From a virus (Duplodnaviria; Heunggongvirae; Uroviricota; Caudoviricetes): a stretch of 19,494 nt of DNA. Position numbers and translations under genes: made by a program. The notes beneath the pieces were generated by a model. That model was not told the origin of the DNA. It searched no databases and saw only the letters and a list, made by a program, of their open reading frames with translations. The stretch is taken from IMG/VR virus record IMGVR_UViG_2534681658_000009, one strand, 5' to 3'. Positions within the stretch are counted from its first letter, which is position 1. Every line of letters begins with the position of its first letter. Below, piece after piece: positions 1-19,494 of this stretch.

Positions 1-2409
<2,409 letters not shown>

Positions 2410-2429
<20 letters not shown>

Positions 2430-3309
2430 TCTCCCGCATATTGCCAGCATGGCCTTTAATGAGCCGCTGATGCTTGAACCCGCCTATGCGCGGGTTTTCT
2501 TTTGTGCGCTTGCAGGCCAGCTTGGGATCAGCCGCCTGACGGATGCGGTGTCCGGTGACAGCCTGACTGCCCAGGAGGCACTCGCGACGCTGGCGTTATC
2601 CGGTGATGATGACGGACCACGACAGGCCCGCAGTTATCAGGTCATGAACGGCATCGCCGTGCTGCCGGTGTCCGGCACGCTGGTCAGCCGGACGCGGGCG
2701 CTGCAGCCGTACTCGGGGATGACCGGTTACAACGGCATTATCGCCCGTCTGCAACAGGCTGCCAGCGACCCGATGGTGGACGGCATTCTGCTCGATATGG
2801 ACACGCCAGGCGGAATGGTGGCGGGGGCATTTGACTGCGCTGACATCATCGCCCGTGTGCGTGACATAAAACCGGTATGGGCGCTGGCCAACGACATGAA
2901 CTGCAGTGCAGGTCAGCTGCTTGCCAGTGCCGCCTCCCGGCGTCTGGTCACGCAGACCGCCCGGACAGGCTCCATCGGCGTCATGATGGCTCACAGTAAT
3001 TACGGTGCTGCCCTGGAGAAACAGGGTGTGGAAATCACGCTGATTTACAGCGGCAGCCATAAGGTGGATGGCAATCCCTACAGCCATCTTCCGGATGACG
3101 TCCGGGAGACACTGCAGTCCCGGATGGACGCAACCCGCCAGATGTTTGCGCAGAAGGTGTCGGCATATACCGGCCTGTCTGTGCAGGCTGTGCTGGATAC
3201 CGAGGCTGCAGTGTACAGCGGTCAGGAGGCCATTGATGCCGGACTGGCTGATGAACTTGTTAACAGCACCGATGCGATCACCGTCATGCGTGATGCACTG
3301 GATGCCTAA
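2410..3309 (+). CDS. C: Capsid assembly protease gpC (S49/ClpP-like), 299 aa; C-terminally truncated relative to the 439-aa lambda gpC because the Nu3-homologous region is in a different frame
   Basis: GTG at 2410 gives TAELRNLPHIASMAFNEPLMLEPAYARVFF..., the lambda gpC N-terminus, 20 nt inside the end of B. Frame ends DALDA then TAA at 3307..3309. In lambda the same frame continues through the Nu3 sequence. Confidence 0.85.
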
Positions 3310-3331
3310 ATCCCGTCTCTCAGGAGGGCGA

Positions 3332-3727
3332 ATGACCAAAGAGACTCAATCAACAACTGTTTCAGCCACTGCTTCGCAGACTGACGTTACTGACGTGGTG
3401 CCAGCGACGGAGGGCGAAAACGCCAGCGCGGCGCAGCCGGACGTGAACGCGCAGATCACCGCTGCGGTTGCGGCAGAAAACAGCCGCATTATGGGGATCC
3501 TCAACTGTGAGGAGGCTCACGGACGCGAAGAACAGGCGCGCGTGCTGGCAGAAACCCCCGGTATGACCGTGGAAACGGCCCGCCGCATTCTGGCCGCAGC
3601 ACCACAGAGTGCACAGGCGCGCAGTGACACTGCGCTGGATCGTCTGATGCAGGGGGCACCGGCACCGCTGGCTACAGGTAACCCGGCATCTGATGCCGTT
3701 AACGATTTGCTGAACACACCAGTGTAA
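3332..3727 (+). CDS. nu3: Capsid scaffolding protein Nu3
   Basis: ATG at 3332 preceded by caggaggg (RBS); MTKETQSTTVSATASQTDVTDVVPATEGENASAAQPDVNAQITAAVAAENSRIMGILNCEEAHGREEQARVLAETPGMTVETARRILAAAPQSAQARSDTALDRLMQGAPAPLATGNPASDAVNDLLNTPV matches lambda Nu3. It is in frame 2 while the C N-terminal part is in frame 1. Confidence 0.9.
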   Translation: MTKETQSTTVSATASQTDVTDVVPATEGENASAAQPDVNAQITAAVAAENSRIMGILNCEEAHGREEQARVLAETPGMTVETARRILAAAPQSAQARSDTALDRLMQGAPAPLATGNPASDAVNDLLNTPV

Positions 3728-7697: not shown

Positions 7698-8120
7698 ATG
7701 TTCCTGAAAACCGAATCATTTGAACATAACGGTGTGACCGTCACGCTTTCTGAACTGTCAGCCCTGCAGCGAATTGAGCATCTCGCCCTGCTGAAACGAC
7801 AGGCAGAACAGGCGGGATCCAGTCTCAATCGACAGGTGAGCGTGGAAGATCTCGTCAGAACCGGTGCTTTTCTGGTGGCGATGTCCCTGTGGCATAGCCA
7901 TCCGCAGAAGACAAAGATGCCGTCCATGAATGAAGCCGTTAAACAAATTGAGCAGGAAGTGCTTACCACCTGGCCCACAGAGGCAATTGCTCAGGCTGAA
8001 AATGTGGTAATGCGTCTGTCCGGTATGTCTGAGTTTGTTGTGAATGATGCACCTGAACAGGCAGATGACGCCGGGCCAGCAGAGCCTGTTTCTGCGGGAA
8101 AGTGTTCGACGGTGAGCTGA
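7698..8120 (+). CDS. G: Tail assembly chaperone G
   Basis: 140-aa ORF MFLKTESFEHNGVTVTLSELSALQRIEHLALLKRQAEQ... matches lambda gpG; ends shortly after the slippery heptamer. Confidence 0.94.
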   Translation: MFLKTESFEHNGVTVTLSELSALQRIEHLALLKRQAEQAGSSLNRQVSVEDLVRTGAFLVAMSLWHSHPQKTKMPSMNEAVKQIEQEVLTTWPTEAIAQAENVVMRLSGMSEFVVNDAPEQADDAGPAEPVSAGKCSTVS

Positions 8121-8536
8121 GTTTTGCCCTGAAACTGGCGCGTGAGATGGGGCGACCCGACTGGCGCGCCATGCTTGCCGGGATGTCATCCACGGAGTAT
8201 GCCGACTGGCACCGCTTTTACAGTACCCATTATTTTCATGATGTTCTGCTGGATATGCACTTTTCCGGGCTGACGTACACCGTGCTCAGCCTGTTTTTCA
8301 GCGATCCGGATATGCATCCGCTGGATTTCAGTCTGCTGAACCGGCGCGAGGCTGACGAAGAGCCTGAAGATGATGTGCTGATGCAGAAAGCGGCAGGGCT
8401 TGCCGGAGGTGTCCGCTTTGGCCCGGACGGGAATGAAGTTATCCCTACTTCCCCGGATGTGGCGGACATGACGGAGGATGACGTAATGCTGATGACAGTA
8501 TCAGAAGGGATCGCAGGAGGAGTCCGGTATGGCTGA
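7698..8536 (+). CDS. T: Tail assembly chaperone G-T fusion, made by programmed -1 ribosomal frameshift at 8096..8102 (T-frame portion 8102..8536)
   Basis: The -1 frame after GGGAAAG reads VFDGELSFALKLAREMGRPDWRAMLAGMSSTEYADWHRFY..., matching lambda gpT; the T frame has no independent start with an RBS. Confidence 0.88.
8096..8102 (+). other. Programmed -1 frameshift slippery heptamer G_GGA_AAG (G/T recoding site)
   Basis: Heptamer GGGAAAG is phased as X XXY YYZ in the G frame, 6 codons before the G stop. Confidence 0.85.
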
Positions 8537-11108
8537 ACCGGTAGGCGATCTGGTCGTTGATTTGAGTCTGGATGCGGCCAGATTTGACGAGCAGATGGCC
8601 AGAGTCAGGCGTCATTTTTCCGGTACGGAAAGTGATGCGAAAAAAACAGCGGCAGTCGTTGAACAGTCAATGAACCGGCAGGCGCTGGCTGCACAGAAAG
8701 CGGGGATTTCCGTCGGACAGTATAAAGCCGCCATGCGTATGCTGCCTGCACAGTTCACCGACGTGGCCACGCAGCTTGCAGGCGGGCAAAGTCCGTGGCT
8801 GATCCTGCTGCAACAGGGGGGTCAGGTGAAGGACTCCTTCGGCGGGATGATCCCCATGTTCCGGGGGCTTGCCGGTGCGATCACCCTGCCGATGGTGGGG
8901 GCCACCTCGCTGGCGGTGGCGACCGGTGCGCTGGCGTATGCCTGGTATCAGGGCAACTCAACCCTGTCCGATTTCAACAAAACGCTGGTCCTTTCCGGCA
9001 ATCAGGCGGGACTGACGGCAGATCGTATGCTGGTCCTGTCCAGAGCCGGGCAGGCGGCAGGGCTGACGTTTAACCAGACCAGCGAGTCACTGACGGCGCT
9101 GGTGAATGCCGGTGTGCGTGGTGGTGAGCAGTTTGAGGCGATCAGCCAGAGTGTGGCGCGTTTCTCCTCTGCATCCGGCGTGGAGGTGGACAAGGTCGCT
9201 GAAGCCTTCGGGAAGCTGACCACAGACCCGACGTCGGGACTGACAGCGATGGCACGTCAGTTCCATAACGTGACGGCGGAGCAGATTGCGTATGTTGCTC
9301 AGTTGCAGCGTTCCGGCGATGAAGCCGGGGCATTGCAGGCGGCGAACGAGGCCGCAACGAAAGGGTTTGATGACCAGACCCGCCGCCTGAAAGAGAACAT
9401 GGGCACGCTGGAGACCTGGGCAGACAGGACAGCACGGGCATTCAAATCCATGTGGGATTCGGTGCTGGATATTGGTCGCCCGGACACTGCCCAGGGAATG
9501 CTGGAGAAAGCAGAAAAGGCTTTTGATGAGGCGGACAAAAAATGGCAGTGGTATCAGAGCCGGAGCCACCGGCGCGGTAAAACCTCAGCATTTCGTGCCA
9601 ATCTCCGGGGAGCATGGGAGGACAGAGCGAATGCGCAACTTGGACTTTCAGCCGCCACGTTGCAGGCCGATCTTGAAAAGGCCAGAGAGATGGCAGCAAA
9701 GGACTGGGCCGAGTCTGAGGCATCACGGCTGAAATATACCGAAGAGGCGCAGAAGGCTTACGAACGGCTGCAGACGCCGCTGGAGAAATATACCGCCCGT
9801 CAGGAAGAACTGAACAAGGCACTGAAAGACGGGAAAATCCTGCAGGCGGATTACAACACGCTGATGGCGGCGGCGAAAAAGGATTATGAAGCGACGCTGA
9901 AAAAGCCGAAACAGTCCGGCGTGAAAGTGTCTGCGGGCGATCGTCAGGAAGACAGTGCTCATGCTGCCCTGCTGACGCTTCAGGCAGAACTCCGGACGCT
10001 GGAGAAGCATGCCGGAGCAAATGAGAAAATCAGCCAGCAGCGCCGGGATTTGTGGAAGGCGGAGAGTCAGTTCGCGGTACTGGAGGAGGCGGCGCAACGT
10101 CGCCAGCTATCCGCACAGGAGAAATCCCTGCTGGCGCATAAAGATGAGACGCTGGAGTACAAACGCCAGCTGGCTGCACTTGGCGACAAGGTTACGTATC
10201 AGGAGCGCCTGAACGCGCTGGCGCAGCAGGCGGATAAATTCGCACAGCAGCAACGGGCAAAACGGGCCGCCATTGATGCGAAAAGCCGGGGGCTGACTGA
10301 CCGGCAGGCAGCGCGGGAAGCCACAGAACAGCGCCTGAAGGAACAGTATGGCGATAATCCTCTGGCGCTGAATAACGTCATGTCAGAGCAGAAAAAGACC
10401 TGGGCGGCTGAAGACCAGCTTCGCGGGAACTGGATGGCAGGCCTGAAGTCCGGCTGGAGTGAGTGGGAAGAGAGCGCCACGGACAGTATGTCGCAGGTAA
10501 AAAGTGCAGCCGCGCAGACCTTTGATGGTATTGCACAGAATATGGCGGCGATGCTGACCGGCAGTGAGCAGAACTGGCGCAGCTTCACCCGTTCCGTGCT
10601 GTCCATGATGACAGAAATTCTGCTTAAGCAGGCAATGGTGGGGATTGTCGGGAGTATCGGCAGCGCCATTGGCGGAGCTGTTGGTGGCGGCGCATCCGCG
10701 TCAGGCGGTACAGCCATTCAGGCCGCTGCGGCGAAATTCCATTTTGCAACCGGAGGATTTACGGGAACCGGCGGCAAATATGAGCCAGCGGGGATTGTTC
10801 ACCGTGGTGAGTTTGTCTTCACGAAGGAGGCAACCAGCCGGATTGGCGTGGGGAATCTTTACCGGCTGATGCGCGGCTATGCCACCGGCGGTTATGTCGG
10901 TACACCGGGCAGCATGGCAGACAGCCGGTCGCAGGCGTCCGGGACGTTTGAGCAGAATAACCATGTGGTGATTAACAACGACGGCACGAACGGGCAGATA
11001 GGTCCGGCTGCTCTGAAGGCGGTGTATGACATGGCCCGCAAGGGTGCCCGTGATGAAATTCAGACACAGATGCGTGATGGTGGCCTGTTCTCCGGAGGTG
11101 GACGATGA
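8529..11108 (+). CDS. H: Tail tape measure protein H (859 aa)
   Basis: Intact 859-aa ORF; N-terminus MAEPVGDLVVDLSLDAARFDEQMARVRRHF and C-terminus ...QTQMRDGGLFSGGGR match lambda gpH; coiled-coil-rich middle and Gly-rich C-terminal segment; overlaps T stop and M start. Confidence 0.93.
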   Translation: MAEPVGDLVVDLSLDAARFDEQMARVRRHFSGTESDAKKTAAVVEQSMNRQALAAQKAGISVGQYKAAMRMLPAQFTDVATQLAGGQSPWLILLQQGGQVKDSFGGMIPMFRGLAGAITLPMVGATSLAVATGALAYAWYQGNSTLSDFNKTLVLSGNQAGLTADRMLVLSRAGQAAGLTFNQTSESLTALVNAGVRGGEQFEAISQSVARFSSASGVEVDKVAEAFGKLTTDPTSGLTAMARQFHNVTAEQIAYVAQLQRSGDEAGALQAANEAATKGFDDQTRRLKENMGTLETWADRTARAFKSMWDSVLDIGRPDTAQGMLEKAEKAFDEADKKWQWYQSRSHRRGKTSAFRANLRGAWEDRANAQLGLSAATLQADLEKAREMAAKDWAESEASRLKYTEEAQKAYERLQTPLEKYTARQEELNKALKDGKILQADYNTLMAAAKKDYEATLKKPKQSGVKVSAGDRQEDSAHAALLTLQAELRTLEKHAGANEKISQQRRDLWKAESQFAVLEEAAQRRQLSAQEKSLLAHKDETLEYKRQLAALGDKVTYQERLNALAQQADKFAQQQRAKRAAIDAKSRGLTDRQAAREATEQRLKEQYGDNPLALNNVMSEQKKTWAAEDQLRGNWMAGLKSGWSEWEESATDSMSQVKSAAAQTFDGIAQNMAAMLTGSEQNWRSFTRSVLSMMTEILLKQAMVGIVGSIGSAIGGAVGGGASASGGTAIQAAAAKFHFATGGFTGTGGKYEPAGIVHRGEFVFTKEATSRIGVGNLYRLMRGYATGGYVGTPGSMADSRSQASGTFEQNNHVVINNDGTNGQIGPAALKAVYDMARKGARDEIQTQMRDGGLFSGGGR

Positions 11109-11434
11109 AGACCTTCCGCTGGAAAGTGAAACCCGGTATGGATGTGGCTTCGGTCCCTTCTGTAAGAAAGGTGCGCTTTGGTGATGGCTATTCTCAGCGA
11201 GCGCCTGCCGGGCTGAATGCCAACCTGAAAACGTACAGCGTGACGCTTTCTGTCCCCCGTGAGGAGGCCACGGTACTGGAGTCGTTTCTGGAAGAGCACG
11301 GGGGCTGGAAATCCTTTCTGTGGACGCCGCCTTATGAGTGGCGGCAGATAAAGGTGACCTGCGCAAAATGGTCGTCGCGGGTCAGTATGCTGCGTGTTGA
11401 GTTCAGCGCAGAGTTTGAACAGGTGGTGAACTGA
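11105..11434 (+). CDS. M: Tail tip protein M
   Basis: 109-aa ORF MKTFRWKVKPGMDVASVPSVRKVRFGDGYSQRAPAGLNANLKTYSVTLSV... matches lambda gpM; ATGA overlaps with H and L. Confidence 0.94.
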   Translation: MKTFRWKVKPGMDVASVPSVRKVRFGDGYSQRAPAGLNANLKTYSVTLSVPREEATVLESFLEEHGGWKSFLWTPPYEWRQIKVTCAKWSSRVSMLRVEFSAEFEQVVN

Positions 11435-12107
11435 TGCAGGATATCCGGCAGGAAACACTGAATGAATGCACCCGTGCGGAGCAGTCGGCCAGCGTGGTGC
11501 TCTGGGAAATCGACCTGACAGAGGTCGGTGGAGAACGTTATTTTTTCTGTAATGAGCAGAACGAAAAAGGTGAGCCGGTCACCTGGCAGGGGCGCAGTAT
11601 CAGGTATCCCATTCAGGGGACGGTTTGAACTGAAGGCAAGGCATCCGCCACCTGACGGTTTCTAACCTGTACGGATGGTCACCGGGATGGCGGAAGATCT
11701 GCAGAGTCTGGTCGGCGGAACGGTGGTCCGGCGTAAGGTTTACGCCCGTTTTCTGGATGCGGTGAACTTCGTCAACGGAAACAGGAGCCGATCCGGAGCA
11801 GGAGGTGATCAGCCGCTGGCGCATGAGCAGTGCAGCGAACTGAGGCGGTAGTGCCTCTTTGTACTGTCCACGCCGACGGAAACGGAGGCGCTGTTTTTCC
11901 GGGACGTATCATGCTGGCCAACACCTGCACCTGGACCTATCGCGGTGATGAGTGCGGTTATCACGGTCCGGCGTCGCGGATGAATATGACCAGCCGACGT
12001 CCGATATCACGAAGGATAAATGCAGCAAATGCCTGAGCGGCTGTAAGTTTCGCAATAACGTCGGCAACTTTGGCGGCTTCCTTTCCATTAACAAACTTTC
12101 GCAGTAA
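11434..12107 (+). pseudogene. L: Tail tip protein L, disrupted by multiple frameshifts (or sequence errors)
   Basis: The first 64 codons match the lambda gpL N-terminus, then a stop at 11626..11628. Later gpL segments lie in other frames: MVTGMAEDLQSLVGGTVVRRKVYARFLDAVNFVNGN from 11675 (frame 2), GAVFPGRIMLANTCTWTYRGDECGY around 11890 (frame 1), DITKDKCSKCLSGCKFRNNVGNFGGFLSINKLSQ up to the stop at 12105..12107 (frame 0). The locus is 674 nt, not a multiple of 3. Confidence 0.8.
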
Positions 12108-12111
12108 TCCC

Positions 12112-12852
12112 ATGACACAGACAGAATCAGCGATTCTGGCGCACGCCCGGCGATGTGCGCCAGCGGAGTCGTGCGGCTTCGTGGTGAGAACGCCGGAGGG
12201 GGAAAGATATTTTCCCTGCGTGAATATCTCCGGTGAGCCGGAGGCGTATTTCCGGATGGCTCCGGAGGACTGGCTGCAGGCAGAGATGCAGGGTGAGATT
12301 GTGGCACTGGTCCACAGTCATCCCGGTGGTCTGCCCTGGCTGAGTGAGGCTGACCGGCGGCTGCAGGTGCAGAGTGATTTGCCGTGGTGGCTGGTCTGCC
12401 GGGGGGCGATTCACAAGTTCCGCTGTGTGCCGCATCTCACCGGGCGGCGCTTTGAGCACGGGGTGACGGACTGTTACACGCTGTTCCGGGATGCTTATCA
12501 TCTGGCGGGGATTGAGATGCCGGATTTTCATCGCGGGGATGACTGGTGGCGTCACGGTCAGAATCTCTATCTGGATAATCTGGAGGCCACAGGGCTGTAT
12601 CAGGTGCCGTTGTCACAGCGCAGCCGGGCGATGTGCTGCTGTGCTGTTTTGGTTCATCGGTGCCGAATCATGCCGCCATTTACTGCGGCGACGGTGAGCT
12701 GCTGCACCATATTCCTGAACAACTGAGTAAACGAGAGAGGTATACCGACAAATGGCAGCGACGCACACACTCCCTCTGGCGTCACCGGGCATGGCACGCA
12801 TCTGCCTTTACGGGGATTTCAACGATTTGGCCGCCGCATCGACCTTCGGTGA
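12112..12852 (+). pseudogene. K: Tail tip assembly protein K (JAMM/MPN plus NlpC/P60 domains), frameshifted in the C-terminal half
   Basis: MTQTESAILAHARRCAPAESCGFVV... with JAMM motif HSHPGGLPWLSEAD (12313..12354) and DCYTLF segment in frame 1. Homology moves to frame 0 after about 12620 (LLCCFGSSVPNHAAIYCGDGELLHHIPEQLSKRERYTDKWQRRTHSLWRHRAW) and shifts again near 12820. Confidence 0.8.
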
Positions 12853-13392
12853 AAACGGGGCGAAGCCATCCGGGCGCTGGCCATGCAGATCCCGGCGTTT
12901 CGTCAGAAACTGAGCGACGGCTGGTACAGGTACGCATTGCCGGGCGTGATGCAGGTGAAACCGAATTGTCTGCCCGTCTTAATGAGCCGCTGGCAAATGG
13001 TGCCGTGATCCAATCGTGCCGCGTCTGGCGGGAGCTAAAAGTGGCGGTGTGTTTCAGGTGGTGCTGGGGGCGGCGTTATTGCGGTGGCATGGTGGAACCC
13101 TGTGGGCTGGCTGGGTGCCGCGGCTGTATCGGGCATGTATGCGGCAGGGGCCAGTATGATCCTGGGCGGAGTGGCGCAGATGCTGGCACCGAAAGCCAGG
13201 ACGCCCACGGCAGCAAGTACAGATAACGGCAAACAGAACACCTATTTCTCCTCACTGGATAACATGGTTGCCCAGGGCAATGTTCTGCCTGTTCTGTACG
13301 GTGAAATGCGCGTGGGGTCACGCGTGGTTTCTCAGGAGATCAGCACGGCAGACGAAGGGGATGGTGGTCAGGTTGTGGTGATTGGTCGCTGA
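12752..13392 (+). pseudogene. I: Tail tip assembly protein I, disrupted by multiple frameshifts
   Basis: ATG 12752 gives MAATHTLPLASPGMARICLYGD (lambda gpI N-terminus, frame 2), stop after about 50 codons. VQVRIAGRD... continues in frame 0, and the C-terminal ...ILGGVAQMLAPKARTP...DNGKQNTYFSSLDNMVAQGNVLPVLYGEMRVGSRVVSQEISTADEGDGGQVVVIGR is in frame 1, ending at 13392. Confidence 0.8.
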
Positions 13393-13410
13393 TGCAAAAT
13401 GTTTTATGTG

Positions 13411-13436
13411 AAACCGCCTCCGGGCGGTTTTATCGT
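13411..13436 (+). terminator. Intergenic hairpin between I and J (aaaccgcc-tccg-ggcggttt, then T-rich)
   Basis: 8-bp inverted repeat with 4-nt loop followed by ttatcgtttat; may be a weak terminator or an RNA-stability element. Confidence 0.3.
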
Positions 13437-13452
13437 TTATGGAGCATGACGA

Positions 13453-16400
13453 ATGGGTAAAGGCAGCAGTAAGGGGCATACCCCGCGCGAAGCAAAGGAC
13501 AACCTGAAGTCCACGCAGTTGCTGAGTGTGATCGATGCCATCAGCGAAGGGCCGGTTGAAGGTCCGGTGGATGGATTAAAAAGCGTGCTGCTGAACAGTA
13601 CACCGGTGCTGGACAGTGAGGGGAATACTAACATCTCTGGTGTCACGGTGGTGTTCCGGGCAGGTGAGCAGGAACAGACACCGCCGGAGGGATTTGAATC
13701 CTCCGGCTCCGAGACGGTGCTGGGTACGGAAGTGAAATATGACACGCCGATCACCCGGACCATCACGTCTGCAAATATCGACCGTCTGCGCTTTACCTTC
13801 GGTGTGCAGGCACTGGTGGAAACCACCTCAAAGGGGGACAGGAATCCGTCGGAAGTCCGCCTGCTGGTTCAGATACAACGTAACGGTGGCTGGGTGACAG
13901 AAAAAGACATCACCATTAAGGGCAAAACCACTTCACAGTATCTGGCCTCGGTGGTGGTGGATAACCTGCCGCCGCGCCCGTTTAATATCCGGATGCGCAG
14001 AATGACGCCGGACAGCACCACAGACCAGCTGCAGAACAAAACGCTCTGGTCGTCATACACCGAAATTATCGATGTGAAACAGTGCTACCCGAACACGGCA
14101 CTGGTCGGCGTGCAGGTGGACTCGGAGCAGTTCGGCAGCCAGCAGGTGAGCCGTAATTATCATCTGCGCGGGCGCATTCTGCAGGTGCCGTCGAACTATA
14201 ACCCGCAGACGCGGCAATACAGCGGTATCTGGGACGGAACGTTTAAGCCAGCATACAGCAACAACATGGCCTGGTGTCTGTGGGATATGCTGACCCATCC
14301 GCGCTACGGCATGGGGAAACGTCTTGGTGCGGCAGATGTGGATAAATGGGCGCTGTATGTCATCGGCCAGTACTGCGACCAGTCGGTGCCGGACGGTTTT
14401 GGCGGCACGGAGCCGCGCATCACCTGTAATGCCTACCTGACCACGCAGCGTAAGGCGTGGGATGTGCTCAGTGATTTCTGCTCGGCGATGCGCTGTATGC
14501 CGGTATGGAACGGGCAGACGCTGACGTTCGTGCAGGACCGACCATCAGATAAGGTGTGGACCTATAACCGCAGTAATGTGGTGATGCCGGATGATGGCGC
14601 GCCGTTCCGCTACAGCTTCAGCGCCCTGAAGGACCGCCATAATGCCGTTGAGGTGAACTGGATTGACCCGAATAACGGCTGGGAGACGGCGACAGAGCTT
14701 GTTGAAGATACGCAGGCCATTGCCCGTTACGGTCGTAACGTCACGAAGATGATGCCTTTGGCTGTACCAGCCGGGGGCAGGCGCACCGCGCCGGGCTGTG
14801 GCTGATTAAAACGGAACTGCTGGAAACGCAGACCGTGGACTTCAGCGTGGGTGCGGAAGGGCTTCGCCATGTACCGGGGGATGTCATTGAAATCTGCGAT
14901 GATGACTATGCGGGTATCAGCACCGGTGGGCGCGTGCTGGCGGTGAACAGCCAGACCCGGACGCTGACGCTCGACCGTGAAATCACGCTGCCATCCTCCG
15001 GTACCACGCTGATAAGCCTGGTTGACGGAAGTGGAATCCGGTCAGCGTGGAGGTCAGTCCGTCACCGACGGCGTGAAGGTAAAGTGAGCCGTGTTCCTGA
15101 CGGCGTTGCGATACAGCGTGTGGGGGCTGAAGCTGCCGACGCTGCGCCAGCGCCTGTTCCGCTGCGTGAGTATCCGTGAGAACGATGACGGCACGTATGC
15201 CATCACCGCCGTGCAGCATGTACCGGAAAAAGAGGCCATCGTGGATAACGGGGCGCACTTTGACGGCGACCAGAGCGGCACGGTGAATGGTGTCACGCCG
15301 CCAGCAGTGCAGCATCTGACCGCCGAAGTCACCGCAGACAGCGGGGAGTATCAGGTACTGGCCCGCTGGGATACGCCGAAGGTGGTGAAGGGCGTGAGTT
15401 TCATGCTTCGCCTGACCGTGGCAGCGGATGACGGCAGTGAGCGGCTGGTCAGCACAGCCCGGACGGCGGAAACCACATACCGCTTCACACAACTGGCGCT
15501 GGGGAACTACAGGCTGACAGTCCGGGCAGTAAATGCGTGGGGGCAGCAGGGCGATCCGGCGTCGGTATCGTTCCGGATTGCCGCACCGGCAGCACCGTCG
15601 CGGATTGAGCTGACGCCGGGCTATTTTCAGATAACCGCAACGCCGCATCTTGCGGTTTATGACCCGACGGTACAGTTTGAGTTCTGGTTCTCGGAAAAAC
15701 GGATTGCGGATATCAGGCAGGTTGAAACCAGCGCGCGTTATCTTGGTACGGCACTGTACTGGATAGCCGCCAGTATCAATATCAAACCGGGCCATGATTA
15801 TTATTTTTACGTTCGCAGTGTGAACACCGTTGGCAAATCGGCATTCGTGGAGGCTGTCGGTCAGCCGAGTGATGATGCATCAGGCTATCTGGATTTTTTC
15901 AAAGGCGAGATAGGGAAAACCCATCTGGCTCAGGAGCTGTGGACGCAGATTGATAACGGTCAGCTTGCGCCTGACCTGACTGAAATCAGGACGTCCATAA
16001 CGGATGTCAGCAATGAAATAACACAGACCGTCAATAAGAAACTGGAAGACCAGAGTGCAGCGATCCAGCAGATACAGAAGGTTCAGGTTGATACAAATAA
16101 TAACCTGAACAGCATGTGGGCAGTGAAGCTGCAGCAGATGCAGGACGGACGCCTTTATATTGCGGGTATCGGTGCCGGTATTGAGAACACCCCTGACGGC
16201 ATGCAGAGTCAGGTGCTGCTGGCGGCGGACAGGATTGCGATGATTAATCCTGCAAATGGCAACACAAAACCGATGTTTGTTGGTCAGGGTGATCAGATAT
16301 TCATGAATGACGTGTTCCTGAAACGCCTGACGGCTCCCACCATTACCAGCGGTGGAAATCCGCCGGCATTTTCCCTGACACCGGACGGAAAGCTGACCGC

Positions 16401-16944
16401 TAAAAATGCGGATATCAGTGGCAGTGTGAATGCGAACGCCGGGACGCTCAACAATGTCACGGTAAATGAAAACTGTACGATTAAGGGCATGCTGGAGGCG
16501 ACTCAGGTCAGAGGTGACTTCGTTAAAGCTGTATCCAAATCATTCCCGAAACAGGCTGGTACGTGGGGTAATACGGAAACACCAAACGGGACGGTTACAG
16601 TCACCATCAGCGATGATCATAACTTTGACCGTCAAATCATTATTCCGCCCATTATCTTTAACGGAATAGCGTATAGCGATCCGGGAAGTGGTAATAACCC
16701 GGGAGGTACAAGATACACGGGTTATGGTTTTGAAGTTCGCAAAAACGGCGTATTAATCGCATCCAGAGAAACTAAAGGGGCCATTCCCGGTAGTTACAGT
16801 GCAGTTATTGATATGCCGAGTGGCAGGGGAAGCGTCACTCTGGAGTTTAAGATTTTCCAGAAAGGCAATCAGGGGGCAGGCAATATCACCGACTGTACGG
16901 TGATTGTGACCAAAAAAGCCGCTTCCGGCATCAGTATTCGTTGA
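13453..16944 (+). pseudogene. J: Tail tip attachment protein / central tail fibre J, interrupted by frameshifts near 14750 and 15040..15120; the 3' 617 codons are intact
   Basis: Three consecutive ORFs in frames 1, 0, 1 (13453..14805, 14835..15179, 15091..16944) each carry successive gpJ-like sequence: MGKGSSKGHTPREAKDNLKSTQLLSVIDAISEGPVEGPVDG..., then ...AFGCTSRGQAHRAGLWLIKTELLETQTVDFSVGAEGLRHVPGDVIEICDDDYAGISTGG..., then [42 protein letters not shown]... to the stop. Confidence 0.85.
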
Positions 16945-16966
16945 AATATTTATAACCCCAATAAAG

Positions 16967-16992
16967 GGCGTCAGGAATGACGCCTTTTTTAT
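16967..16992 (+). terminator. Rho-independent terminator downstream of J
   Basis: ggcgtca-ggaa-tgacgcc stem-loop followed by tttttt att, 22 nt after the J stop. Confidence 0.7.
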
Positions 16993-17014
16993 TGCAGAAA
17001 AGCGAGAGGTAATT

Positions 17015-17614
17015 ATGCGTAAAGTTTGTGCAGCAATTTTGTCCGCAGCCATTTGTCTGGCCGTATCCGGTGCGCCTGCATGGGCGTCTGAACATCAGTC
17101 CACGCTGAGCGCGGGGTATCTTCATGCCTCGACGAACGTCCCCGGCAGTGATGATCTGAACGGGATTAACGTGAAATACCGTTATGAGTTTACGGACACA
17201 CTGGGGCTGGTGACGTCATTCAGCTATGCAGGAGACAAGAATCGCCAGCTGACCCGTTACAGCGATACCCGCTGGCATGAAGATTCCGTTCGTAACCGCT
17301 GGTTCAGCGTAATGGCGGGGCCGTCTGTGCGCGTGAATGAATGGTTCAGCGCGTATGCGATGGCGGGTGTGGCTTACAGCCGTGTGTCGACTTTCTCCGG
17401 GGATTATCTCCGCGTAACTGACAACAAGGGGAAAACGCACGACGTGCTGACCGGAAGTGATGACGGTCGCCACAGCAACACGTCTCTGGCGTGGGGGGCT
17501 GGCGTGCAGTTTAACCCGACCGAATCCGTGGCCGTTGATGTCGCTTATGAAGGCTCCGGCAGTGGCAACTGGCGCACTGACGGTTTCATCGTGGGTGTTG
17601 GTTATAAGTTCTGA
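17015..17614 (+). CDS. lom: Outer-membrane beta-barrel protein Lom (Ail/Lom/OmpX family), a lysogenic-conversion moron
   Basis: 199-aa ORF with signal peptide MRKVCAAILSAAICLAVSGAPAWA and C-terminal ...GFIVGVGYKF (terminal Phe typical of outer-membrane beta-barrels); matches lambda Lom; gagagg RBS; own terminators on both sides. Confidence 0.93.
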   Translation: MRKVCAAILSAAICLAVSGAPAWASEHQSTLSAGYLHASTNVPGSDDLNGINVKYRYEFTDTLGLVTSFSYAGDKNRQLTRYSDTRWHEDSVRNRWFSVMAGPSVRVNEWFSAYAMAGVAYSRVSTFSGDYLRVTDNKGKTHDVLTGSDDGRHSNTSLAWGAGVQFNPTESVAVDVAYEGSGSGNWRTDGFIVGVGYKF

Positions 17615-17641
17615 TTAGCCAGGTAACACAGTGTTATGACA

Positions 17642-17668
17642 GCCCGCCGGTTCAGGCGGGCTTTTTTG
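17642..17668 (+). terminator. Rho-independent terminator downstream of lom
   Basis: gcccgcc-ggttcag-gcgggc stem-loop followed by tttttt. Confidence 0.7.
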
Positions 17669-17678
17669 TGGGGTGAAT

Positions 17679-19494
17679 ATGGCAGTAAAGATTTCAGGTG
17701 TACTGAAAGACGGTGCAGGTAAACCGGTACAGAACTGTACAATCCAGCTGAAAGCAAAACGTAACAGCACCACGGTGGTGGCGAACACGGTGGCCTCAGA
17801 AAATCCGGATGAAGCCGGGCGTTACAGCATGGACGTTGAGTACGGTCAGTACAGCGTTATTCTGTTGGTGGAAGGCTTCCCGCCATCGCATGCCGGGACC
17901 ATCACCGTGTATGAAGACTCACAACCGGGTACGCTGAATGATTTTCTCGGTGCCATGACGGAGGATGATGTCCGTCCGGAGGCACTGCGCCGCTTTGAAC
18001 TGATGGTGGAAGAGGTGGCGCGTAACGCGTCCGCGGTGGCACAGAACACGGCAGCCGCGAAGAAGTCAGCCAGCGATGCCGGCACATCAGCCCGTGAGGC
18101 GGCAACCCATGCGACTGATGCTACAGGCTCAGCACGGCAGCCAGCACTCAGCCGGCAGGCCGCGCGTCGGCTCAGTCAGCTCTTCCAGCGCAGGAACGGC
18201 ATCAACAAAGGCCATGAAGCATCAAAAGTGCTGCGCTGCAGAGTCCTCAAAAAGCGCGGCAGCTACCAGTGCCGTGCGGCGAAAACGTCAGAAACGAATG
18301 CGGCAGCGTCACAAAATCGCAGCCACTTCTGCATCCGCCGCGACCACGAAGCGTCAGAAGCGCCACCTCAGCCCGGGATGCGGCGGCCTCAAAAGAGGCA
18401 GCGAAATCATCAGAAACGAACGCATCATCAAGCGCCAGTAGTGCCGCTTCCTCGGCAACGGCGGCAGGCAATTCCGCGAAGGCGGCAAAAACGTCGAGAC
18501 AACGCCAGGTCTTCTGAAACGGCAGCGGGACAGAGCGCCTCAGCTGCGGCAGGCTCAAAAACAGCGGCTGCGTCGTCTGCCAGTGCCGCATCAACAAGTG
18601 CCGGGCAGGCCTCAGCCAGTGCCACCGCTGCCGGAAAGTCGGCAGAAAGTGCCGCATCGTCTGCTTCAACAGCCACAACGAAGGCTGGCGAAGCCACTGA
18701 ACAGGCCAGCGCAGCAGCGAGGTCAGCTTCCGCAGCGAAGACATCCGAAACGAACGCGAAAGCGTCGGAAACCCGTGCAGAATCCTCAAAAACGGCTGCC
18801 GCATCGTCAGCCAGTTCGGCGGCGTCATCGGCATCATCGGCGTCTGCTTCAAAAGATGAGGCGACCATACAGGCGTCAGCAGCGAAGGGCAGCGCCACGA
18901 CGGCATCCACGAAGGCGACAGAGGCTGCTGGTAGTGCGACGGCAGCAGCTCAGAGCAAAAGTACGGCGGAATCTGCAGCAACGCGCGCTGAGACAGCGGC
19001 AAAACGGGCAGAGGATATTGCATCCGCCGTGGCGCTTGAGGATGCGAGCACGACGAAAAAGGGGATAGTACAGCTCAGTAGTGCGACTAACAGCACGTCT
19101 GAAACGCTGGCGGCAACGCCAAAGGCAGTAAAATCAGCCTATGACAATGCAGAGAAACGTCTGCAGAAAGACCAGAACGGCGCTGATATACCCGATAAGG
19201 GACGCTTCCTGAACAACATTAACGCGGTCAGTAAAACAGACTTTGCTGATAAGCGTGGTATGCGTTATGTGCGGGTTAACGCTCCTGCAGGTGCAACATC
19301 TGGAAAATATTACCCTGTTGTTGTTATGCGTTCTGCTGGCTCAGTAAGCGAACTGGCATCAAGGGTCATTATCACCACGGCAACGCGAACCGCAGGCGAT
19401 CCGATGAATAACTGCGAGTTTAACGGATTTGTTATGCCTGGTGGCTGGACTGACAGGGGGCGTTATGCTTATGGAATGTTCTGGCAATATCAAA
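17679..19494 (+). CDS. stf: Side tail fibre protein Stf, N-terminal 605 codons (3' end outside the window); an internal stretch of about 18110..18520 is frame-scrambled
   Basis: ATG 17679 gives MAVKISGVLKDGAGKPVQNCTIQLKAKRNSTTVVANTVASENPDEAGRYSMDVEYGQYSVILLVEGFPPSHAGTITVYEDSQPGTLNDFL..., matching the lambda Stf N-terminus. Frame 0 stays open to the window end, which is why the ORF is missing from the stop-delimited track. Downstream Ala/Ser/Thr-rich repeats and the KGIVQLSSATNSTSETLAATPKAVK motif are in frame. Confidence 0.8.
   Translation, partial: MAVKISGVLKDGAGKPVQNCTIQLKAKRNSTTVVANTVASENPDEAGRYSMDVEYGQYSVILLVEGFPPSHAGTITVYEDSQPGTLNDFLGAMTEDDVRPEALRRFELMVEEVARNASAVAQNTAAAKKSASDAGTSAREAATHATDATGSARQPALSRQAARRLSQLFQRRNGINKGHEASKVLRCRVLKKRGSYQCRAAKTSETNAAASQNRSHFCIRRDHEASEAPPQPGMRRPQKRQRNHQKRTHHQAPVVPLPRQRRQAIPRRRQKRRDNARSSETAAGQSASAAAGSKTAAASSASAASTSAGQASASATAAGKSAESAASSASTATTKAGEATEQASAAARSASAAKTSETNAKASETRAESSKTAAASSASSAASSASSASASKDEATIQASAAKGSATTASTKATEAAGSATAAAQSKSTAESAATRAETAAKRAEDIASAVALEDASTTKKGIVQLSSATNSTSETLAATPKAVKSAYDNAEKRLQKDQNGADIPDKGRFLNNINAVSKTDFADKRGMRYVRVNAPAGATSGKYYPVVVMRSAGSVSELASRVIITTATRTAGDPMNNCEFNGFVMPGGWTDRGRYAYGMFWQYQ
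18050..18960 (+). repeat. Low-complexity Ala/Ser/Thr-rich coding repeats of the Stf shaft
   Basis: Reiterated GCN/TCN/ACN codon runs encoding variants of SAAASSA / AAKTSETNA; they give stop-free ORFs in all frames on both strands. Confidence 0.7.

What the first reader, a model, noticed from the sequence alone, without database searches (positions are those of the whole stretch)
18100..18520. stf contains a frame-scrambled segment hidden inside an uninterrupted ORF
Frame 0 is open from the stf ATG (17679) to the window edge, but between about 18110 and 18520 it encodes an Arg/Gln/His-rich string (...RRLSQLFQRRNGINKGHEASKVLRCRVLKKRGSYQ...RRPQKRQRNHQKRTHHQ...) that is unlike a fibre shaft. The expected Ala/Ser/Thr-rich Stf repeats (AAESSKSAAATSA, SATSARDAAASKEAAKSSETNASSSASSAASSATAAGNSAKAAKTS) appear in the other two frames (track ORFs 18076..18441 and 18269..18517). 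Several compensating indels therefore sit inside the repeat tract, and the gene looks intact only because the GC-rich repeat codons rarely make stops in any frame. An ORF caller would wrongly report an intact fibre.
Basis: partly seen in the sequence, partly recalled or inferred. Interest (0 to 1): 0.5.

Follow-up and report, generated by a model that had tools for sequence, protein, structure and literature searches.

The report
Assembly-made frame scramble in tail-fibre gene
The odd Arg-rich stretch in this phage tail-fibre gene is real in the deposited sequence, but it comes from 15 bases that a short-read assembler almost certainly dropped where several near-identical prophage copies differ, so it is a data artefact rather than biology.

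Summary
Frame 0 is open from the stf ATG (17679) to the contig end. Between 18137 and 18500 it encodes an Arg/Lys/His/Gln-rich string, while the true Ala/Ser/Thr shaft sequence hops between the other two frames.

The cause is 15 missing single bases, with no insertions, all between 18136 and 18500. None of 4,022 complete E. coli records or 248 phage records with this segment shares them.

The missing bases are not randomly placed. 13-14 of the 15 fall on columns that vary among 78 natural stf homologues. 11 of the 15 fall on the 44 columns where two stf paralogues of one closed ETEC genome (ETEC-2265) differ, against 4 on 996 identical columns (Fisher p = 2.5e-13). Two more can be re-placed onto such columns.

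The same signature occurs in deletion clusters in genes L, K, I and J of this window. It also occurs in two IMG/VR contigs that share most of these deletions.

The window is the whole contig AQDL01000023.1 of the draft genome of ETEC isolate 2860050 (Illumina 100-bp reads, Celera Assembler).

Best explanation (about 0.9): reads from paralogous prophage fibre genes were pooled and the consensus lost the discordant columns. The frame stays open by luck (21% of random 15-deletion sets). This is not a real biological feature, and interest is low.

The parts
17679..19494 (+). 5' part (605 codons) of the side tail fibre gene stf; it runs off the end of the contig
   Evidence: The ORF is open in frame 0. 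Pfam PF08400 phage_tail_N matches aa 1-134 (E=3.8e-72) and PF03406 Phage_fiber_2 matches aa 457-497. It is 96-98% identical at DNA level to annotated stf/stfR genes and lies downstream of J and lom as in lambda.
17679..18130 (+). Undamaged N-terminal part of stf
   Evidence: There are no indels here. The window carries the allele of the ETEC-2265 paralogue at 1.29 Mb (L248) at all 25 sites where the two ETEC-2265 paralogues differ.
18137..18500 (+). Frame-scrambled segment. 15 single bases are missing, after 18136, 18147, 18155, 18164, 18180, 18214, 18223, 18234, 18273, ~18313, ~18317, 18350, 18361, 18495 and 18500. The true Stf reading hops between frames +2, +1 and 0.
   Evidence: Alignments; frame map. 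13-14 of the 15 deleted columns are polymorphic in 78 homologues. 11 of 44 paralogue-different columns are deleted against 4 of 996 identical columns, p=2.5e-13.
18501..19494 (+). In-frame Ala/Ser/Thr-rich shaft and the start of the distal part of Stf. It belongs to a third haplotype.
   Evidence: Ala+Ser+Thr is 0.72-0.80 in 40-aa windows and there are no indels. The window has 25 differences here where L248 and L249 are identical to each other, and it is almost identical to Ec-U11 stfR.
11594..12105 (+). Deletion cluster of the same kind in tail gene L; the gene is broken
   Evidence: 15 deletion events including a 10-nt one. Every single-base deletion falls on a column with minor-allele frequency 0.15-0.47 in 80 homologues, and the 10-nt gap spans 5 such columns. 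No intact L ORF is present.
12615..13135 (+). Deletion cluster of the same kind in tail genes K and I
   Evidence: single-base deletions fall on columns with minor-allele frequency 0.10-0.47. The 19-nt and smaller gaps lie in a highly divergent stretch of I.
14750..15109 (+). Deletion cluster in J (6 bases). J is split into ORFs 13453-14805 and 15091-16944.
   Evidence: The events at 15034, 15054, 15080 and 15109 sit on columns where the ETEC-2265 paralogues differ. The one at 14750 sits on an invariant column.
3304..3305 (+). 2-nt deletion in gene C/Nu3; it splits the ORF into 2263-3309 and 3068-3727
   Evidence: One of the two lost bases is an A/G variable site.

Best explanation
The scrambled segment is an assembly artefact in a draft genome. 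The window is the complete contig AQDL01000023.1 of ETEC isolate 2860050, built from 100-bp Illumina reads with the Celera Assembler. ETEC genomes carry several lambdoid prophages whose stf genes are nearly identical over stretches of the shaft region. Where that similarity was high enough, reads from two or more paralogues were piled into one multiple alignment. At each column where the paralogues disagree no base won, and the consensus emitted nothing, so each paralogue difference became a one-base deletion. Shown: the deletions, their coincidence with paralogue differences, their absence from finished genomes, and the provenance of the contig. Inferred: the exact step in the consensus caller (for example, a mismatch represented as two gap-containing columns, both then called as gap). 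By chance 15 bases were lost, a multiple of 3, and the shifted frames contain no stop, so the ORF stays open. The real gene in strain 2860050 is expected to be an ordinary intact stf.
For: (1) All 15 events are single-base deletions packed into 365 nt, flanked by indel-free sequence. Across the whole contig, deletions outnumber insertions 44 to 1 and come in clusters. (2) 13 of 15 deleted columns have minor-allele frequency >=0.05 in 78 natural homologues, 14 with equivalent placement, while only 15-20% of columns are that variable. None of 20,000 random draws reaches this, and Mann-Whitney p=1.5e-7. (3) Two natural haplotypes (L042, L045) differ at 12 of the 15 deleted columns outright, and the two bases of the 18313/18317 event can be re-placed onto two further differing columns, giving 14. 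(4) In the closed genome of Bangladeshi ETEC-2265, the two stf paralogues differ at 11 of the 15 deleted columns directly and at 13 after re-placing the 18313/18317 event. Deleted columns are 11/44 of the differing ones against 4/996 of the identical ones, Fisher p=2.5e-13. (5) The clusters in L, K/I and J show the same coincidence. (6) The scramble lies between a 5' block that is purely the L248 haplotype and a 3' block of a third haplotype, which is where different copies would be joined. (7) None of 4,022 complete E. coli records or 248 phage records containing this segment has the deletions; every full-length match listed spans 436 nt against the window's 421, and no record reaches 99% identity. 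(8) Only two short IMG/VR contigs share them. These carry further deletions of their own, again on paralogue-different columns (22/44 vs 19/996 and 20/44 vs 12/996), and differ from each other by 27 gap openings in 4.2 kb. (9) Provenance: GCA_000354995.2, E. coli 2860050, Illumina HiSeq 100-bp reads, Celera Assembler. Another assembly with a neighbouring accession prefix (AQEP01000006.1) ends in a jumble of lom and stf fragments with many gaps. (10) The record length equals the window length and the window holds no non-ACGT letters, so nothing was stripped after deposition.
Against: No reads could be inspected, so the artefact is inferred from pattern rather than seen. The paralogues of strain 2860050 itself were not available; ETEC-2265 and IMG/VR homologues stand in for them. 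Two deleted bases (18495, 18500) are not variable between the two ETEC-2265 paralogues examined, though they are variable among other homologues (minor-allele frequency 0.31 and 0.19). One deletion elsewhere (14750) is on an invariant column. Some paralogue-different columns inside the zone were kept (5 with the L249 allele), so dropping was not universal. Sharing of the deletions by three assemblies would also be expected if they were inherited. I found no paper describing this exact Celera consensus behaviour.
Confidence: 0.9

Rival explanations
1. The deletions are real: this stf copy is a decaying prophage pseudogene that accumulated 15 single-base deletions, inherited by related ETEC isolates.
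For: Two other contigs (L005, L006) share most of the deletions. Other tail genes on the contig are also broken. The corresponding prophage of closed ETEC-2265 has L and I annotated as frameshifted and an IS66 element in Z, so the prophage lineage does decay.
Against: Natural decay does not give 15 deletions, no insertions and almost no private substitutions in 365 nt beside perfectly clean flanks. It would not place deletions on the sites where paralogues differ (p=2.5e-13). None of 5,426 complete E. coli genomes has them. L005 and L006 carry different extra deletions with the same site bias.
Confidence: 0.05
2. The artefact arose by a different route. The assembler or a submission script wrote ambiguity codes or low-quality bases at paralogue-discordant columns, and these characters were removed before deposition.
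For: This gives the same site pattern as the main explanation: one lost character per discordant column. Runs such as the 10-nt gap at 11651 cover several discordant columns.
Against: It cannot be distinguished from consensus gap-calling with these tools. Stripping after deposition is excluded: the record length of 19494 equals the window length and the window has no non-ACGT letters. The 10-nt gap also removes invariant bases between variable ones, which simple stripping of characters would not do.
Confidence: 0.04
3. The Arg-rich segment is a genuine, functional variant of the fibre shaft, or is bypassed by programmed recoding.
For: The ORF is uninterrupted.
Against: The segment has no full-length homologue among 5.8 billion proteins. 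At DNA level it is 96% identical to ordinary shaft sequence, differing essentially only by the missing bases. Recoding would need 15 separate events. An open frame is expected by chance in 21% of such deletion sets.
Confidence: 0.01

Closest known systems
Lambda side tail fibre Stf / E. coli prophage StfR ('prophage tail fiber N-terminal domain-containing protein')
   Same: It has the PF08400 N-terminal domain, an Ala/Ser/Thr-rich shaft and a PF03406 fibre repeat. It lies after J and lom in a lambda-type late operon and is 96-98% identical at DNA level to annotated stf genes.
   Different: In the deposited sequence 15 bases of the shaft are missing, so about 120 codons are read out of frame. 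The C-terminal receptor-binding part and tfa lie beyond the contig end.
The stf frameshift of laboratory lambda PaPa relative to Ur-lambda (Hendrix and Duda 1992, recalled from memory; echoed in the HK630 annotation 'missing C (relative to sequence of Ur-lambda)')
   Same: It is a loss of a single base inside stf that alters the reading of the fibre gene.
   Different: That is one real mutation which splits stf into two ORFs and abolishes side fibres. Here there are 15 losses, the ORF stays open, and the pattern points to an assembly artefact rather than a mutation.
Collapsed-repeat (paralogue) consensus errors in short-read draft assemblies
   Same: Multi-copy prophage genes, errors confined to stretches shared by the copies, errors sitting on copy-discriminating sites, chimeric haplotype blocks, and absence from finished genomes.
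   Different: The usual outcome is a wrong or mixed base, or a contig break. Here the discordant column is dropped, which gives clean one-base deletions. I could not document this behaviour from the literature.

Membership tests
Lambda-type side tail fibre Stf/StfR | N-terminal 'prophage tail fibre N-terminal' domain (PF08400) | tested here: met
   aa 1-134, E=3.8e-72, 241 bits against a cutoff of 26.6
Lambda-type side tail fibre Stf/StfR | Position downstream of J and lom in the late (tail) operon | tested here: met
   The window is collinear with phages PhiR34_1 and Kati from terminase A to stf. lom is at 17015-17614 and stf starts at 17679.
Lambda-type side tail fibre Stf/StfR | Continuous Ala/Ser/Thr-rich shaft read in one frame | tested here: not met
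   In the sequence as deposited, the shaft between 18137 and 18500 is spread over three frames. It would be met after restoring the 15 bases.
Lambda-type side tail fibre Stf/StfR | C-terminal receptor-binding region followed by the tail fibre assembly gene tfa | not testable with these tools
   The contig ends at 19494 inside stf. Intact relatives have both.
Collapsed-paralogue consensus artefact | Errors coincide with sites that differ between co-resident copies | tested here: met
   11/44 differing columns against 4/996 identical columns, p=2.5e-13, using the two ETEC-2265 paralogues. 13-14 of the 15 deleted columns are variable in 78 homologues.
Collapsed-paralogue consensus artefact | Several near-identical copies in the same genome | tested here: inconclusive
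   Complete ETEC genomes have 5-8 matching places per chromosome, 6 in ETEC-2265. The copies of strain 2860050 itself were not available.
Collapsed-paralogue consensus artefact | Draft short-read assembly; the error is absent from finished genomes | tested here: met
   Illumina 100-bp reads and Celera Assembler. No complete E. coli record or phage record shares the deletions.
Collapsed-paralogue consensus artefact | The read pile-up shows mixed alleles and no read supports the deleted junction | not testable with these tools
   The reads (SRR446790) cannot be accessed here.
Programmed ribosomal frameshift / recoding site | A conserved shift site with both frames conserved in homologues | tested here: not met
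   The 15 shifts are absent from all homologues, and the out-of-frame peptide is not conserved.

The most novel reading that the evidence does not exclude
The deletions exist in the cell's DNA and were produced by an undescribed process that removes, rather than corrects, mismatched bases in heteroduplexes formed when diverged prophage fibre genes recombine. That would explain why they sit exactly on paralogue-different sites and are shared by related isolates.
Probability: 0.03. Interest if true: 0.65.

Novelty: not a real feature. Interest (0 to 1): 0.08.

Why it matters
The value is practical rather than biological. Draft assemblies of strains with many lambdoid prophages can contain clusters of one-base deletions exactly at paralogue-discriminating sites. 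These produce false pseudogenes (L, K, I and J here) or, as in stf, an ORF that looks intact but encodes a nonsense segment. The fragments have entered protein databases: the truncated J fragments EMV95997.1 and EMV95993.1 come from this contig. The site-coincidence test used here, deleted columns against columns that vary between paralogues, is a quick way to recognise such artefacts without reads. If the deletions proved real, they would point to an unknown mutational process at heteroduplex mismatches.

Tried and rejected
A scan of genome contigs for a 61-nt string spanning five of the deletions found nothing. A viral-contig scan for a window-specific 81-nt string also found nothing, so the window itself is not in IMG/VR.

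tblastn of intact Stf against the window simply ran through the scrambled part in frame 1 at 83% identity and did not separate the frames. I replaced it with an explicit frame map.

Paper searches for the WGS and assembly accessions and for the strain number in main texts found nothing useful. The strain was then found in a supplementary table. A search for papers on Celera consensus errors at collapsed repeats gave nothing relevant.

Looking up the weak hits to the scrambled peptide gave almost no names, and P0001 is not on record.

A homopolymer or sequencing-chemistry cause was considered and rejected because the lost bases are mostly not in homopolymer runs. Stripping of ambiguity codes after deposition was rejected because the record and the window have the same length.

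Full report
**What is in the sequence.** Frame 0 from the ATG at 17679 is open to the end of the window. The product begins with a full PF08400 'prophage tail fibre N-terminal' domain (aa 1-134, E=3.8e-72) and has a PF03406 fibre repeat at aa 457-497. The gene follows J and lom in a lambda-type late operon that is collinear with phages PhiR34_1 and Kati. It is therefore the 5' part of a side tail fibre gene, stf.

The Ala/Ser/Thr-rich pieces lie in frames +1 and +2. In 40-aa windows Ala+Ser+Thr drops to 0.12-0.17 and Arg+Lys+His+Gln rises to 0.40-0.55, and Ala+Ser+Thr then jumps to 0.75-0.80.

**The direct cause.** I aligned the window with intact stf genes from E. coli Ec-U11 and phage PhiR34_1. 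The window lacks 15 single bases, after 18136, 18147, 18155, 18164, 18180, 18214, 18223, 18234, 18273, ~18313, ~18317, 18350, 18361, 18495 and 18500. It has no insertions and no other indel in the 1,816 nt.

The true reading hops between frames after each loss, and only 69 of the 364 nt in the zone are read correctly. Fifteen is a multiple of three, so the frame is restored at 18501.

In the intact gene, frame +1 has a single stop in the shaft and frame +2 has several. In simulation, 21% of random sets of 15 deletions leave the ORF open, and sets of 13, 14 or 16 never do. The open frame is therefore mild luck and needs no selection.

The scrambled peptide has no full-length relative among 5.8 billion proteins.

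**Is it shared?** Among 5,426 complete E. coli genomes, 4,022 records contain this segment. Every full-length match listed spans 436 nt against the window's 421, and none reaches 99% identity. The 248 phage records behave the same way.

Only two short IMG/VR contigs (L005, L006, from consecutive IMG genome ids) contain a 61-nt string spanning five of the deletions. They share most of the window's stf deletions. They also have many further deletions of their own where the window is intact, and they differ from each other by 27 gap openings in 4.2 kb.

**The rest of the window.** Against PhiR34_1 and Kati the whole window shows 44 deletion events and 1 insertion. The events are clustered at 3304 (gene C/Nu3), 11594-12105 (L), 12615-13135 (K and I), 14750-15109 (J) and 18136-18500 (stf), with clean sequence between the clusters. 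The clusters break C/Nu3, L, K, I and J.

**The key pattern.** The lost bases sit on sites that vary between natural copies of these genes.
- In 78 stf homologues, 13 of the 15 deleted columns have minor-allele frequency >=0.05, or 14 with equivalent placement. Only 15-20% of columns are that variable. None of 20,000 random draws matches this, and Mann-Whitney p=1.5e-7.
- Two natural haplotypes (L042, L045) differ at 12 of the 15 deleted columns outright, and at 14 once the two bases of the 18313/18317 event are re-placed onto the two adjacent differing columns.
- In L, K and I every single-base deletion falls on a column with minor-allele frequency 0.10-0.47, and the 10-nt gap at 11651 spans five such columns.
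- In J, four of six lost bases do the same. The one at 14750 does not.

**Provenance.** An exact look-up of the truncated J product places the window as the entire 19,494-nt contig AQDL01000023.1 of GCA_000354995.2, Escherichia coli 2860050. The supplementary table of Sahl et al. 2017 (PMC5469772) lists isolate 2860050 (ETEC, ST443, CS5/CS6, Bangladesh, AQDL00000000, reads SRR446790). The methods state Illumina HiSeq 2000 100-bp reads assembled with Celera Assembler.

The record length equals the window length and there are no non-ACGT letters, so nothing was removed after deposition.

**A direct stand-in for the strain's paralogues.** The closed chromosome of Bangladeshi ETEC-2265 has six places matching this stf segment. 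I fetched two of them, L249 (stf at 863,582) and L248 (stf at 1,291,654).
- From 17679 to 18130 the window carries the L248 allele at all 25 sites where the two copies differ.
- From 18131 to 18370, 11 of the differing sites are simply absent from the window, and two more once the 18313/18317 event is re-placed. Five carry the L249 allele.
- From 18521 onward L248 and L249 are identical to each other, but the window has 25 differences of its own, so this part is a third haplotype.

Over the first 1,040 columns of stf the window lacks 11 of 44 paralogue-different columns against 4 of 996 identical ones (Fisher p=2.5e-13). L005 lacks 22/44 against 19/996, and L006 lacks 20/44 against 12/996. The scramble is thus the junction zone between haplotype blocks, where reads of several copies overlap.

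**Explanation.** Reads from paralogous stf genes of co-resident lambdoid prophages were pooled where the copies are similar enough, and the consensus lost each discordant column. The pattern and the provenance are shown. The exact consensus step is inferred. Another assembly with a neighbouring accession prefix (AQEP01000006.1) ends in a jumble of lom and stf fragments with many gaps, which fits a pipeline-level problem.

A real decaying pseudogene is the main rival. It does not explain the all-deletion spectrum, the clean flanks, the site coincidence, or the differing extra deletions in L005 and L006. A functional Arg-rich variant or recoding is excluded by the lack of any conservation.

**Comparison with the known.** The gene is an ordinary member of the lambda Stf/StfR family, apart from the continuity of its shaft in the deposited sequence. 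The well-known real stf frameshift of lambda PaPa is a single event that splits the gene (recalled from memory; compare the HK630 annotation). This case differs in number, in outcome and, most likely, in reality.

**Verdict.** Confidence in the artefact reading is about 0.9. Novelty: not a real feature. Interest is low. The decisive test is to map SRR446790 onto the contig.

Noticed in passing
window 11594-12105, 12615-13135, 14750-15109, 3304: There are four more clusters of one-base (and a few longer) deletions, in genes L, K/I, J and C/Nu3. They break these genes and show the same bias to paralogue-variable sites. The resulting J fragments are in GenBank as EMV95997.1 and EMV95993.1.
   Followed up: yes
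window 14750: One lost G (GATGGATG to GATGATG) lies on a column that is invariant in 81 J homologues, unlike nearly all the other deletions. It could be a real mutation or a different kind of error.
   Followed up: partly
window 11000-19494: The contig alternates between blocks matching one or the other ETEC-2265 prophage: L249-like at 11000-11500 and 15500-17250, and L248-like at 12750-15500 and 17500-18130. A third haplotype follows after 18520. This is either natural mosaicism or a chimeric assembly. The deletion clusters lie inside or at the edges of these blocks.
   Followed up: partly
window 18247-18471(-), 18428-18910(-), 19029-19494(+): The gene calls on record for this contig do not include the long stf ORF. 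They give two antisense ORFs inside the Ala/Ser/Thr tract and a 155-aa 3' fragment. The GC-rich shaft is open in several frames on both strands, for example 18247..19023(-) at 258 aa.
   Followed up: partly
L249 13279-13976 and 14721-15290 (NZ_CP023346.1 857278-857975 and 858720-859289); L249 5102-8387: In the closed ETEC-2265 genome the corresponding prophage has genes L and I annotated as frameshifted and an IS66-family element inserted in tail gene Z. At window 11856 the window and L249 share a missing base. Part of the damage in L and I may therefore be genuine in this prophage lineage.
   Followed up: no
L250 (AQEP01000006.1 562918-568235): The end of a 568-kb contig from an assembly with a neighbouring WGS accession prefix holds a jumble: stf fragments, lom, a 145-aa truncated stf N-terminus, lom again, then stf again. 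One stretch has 14 gap openings per kb. It looks like a misassembled pile of prophage copies.
   Followed up: partly
window 17641-17668: A GC-rich hairpin (AGCCCGCC ... GGCGGGCT) followed by TTTTTT lies between lom and stf. It looks like an intrinsic terminator just upstream of the stf start.
   Followed up: no
window 7698-8120 and 8102-8536: The overlapping ORFs for the tail assembly chaperones G and T are intact, in the arrangement known for the lambda G/GT programmed -1 frameshift. I did not examine them further.
   Followed up: no
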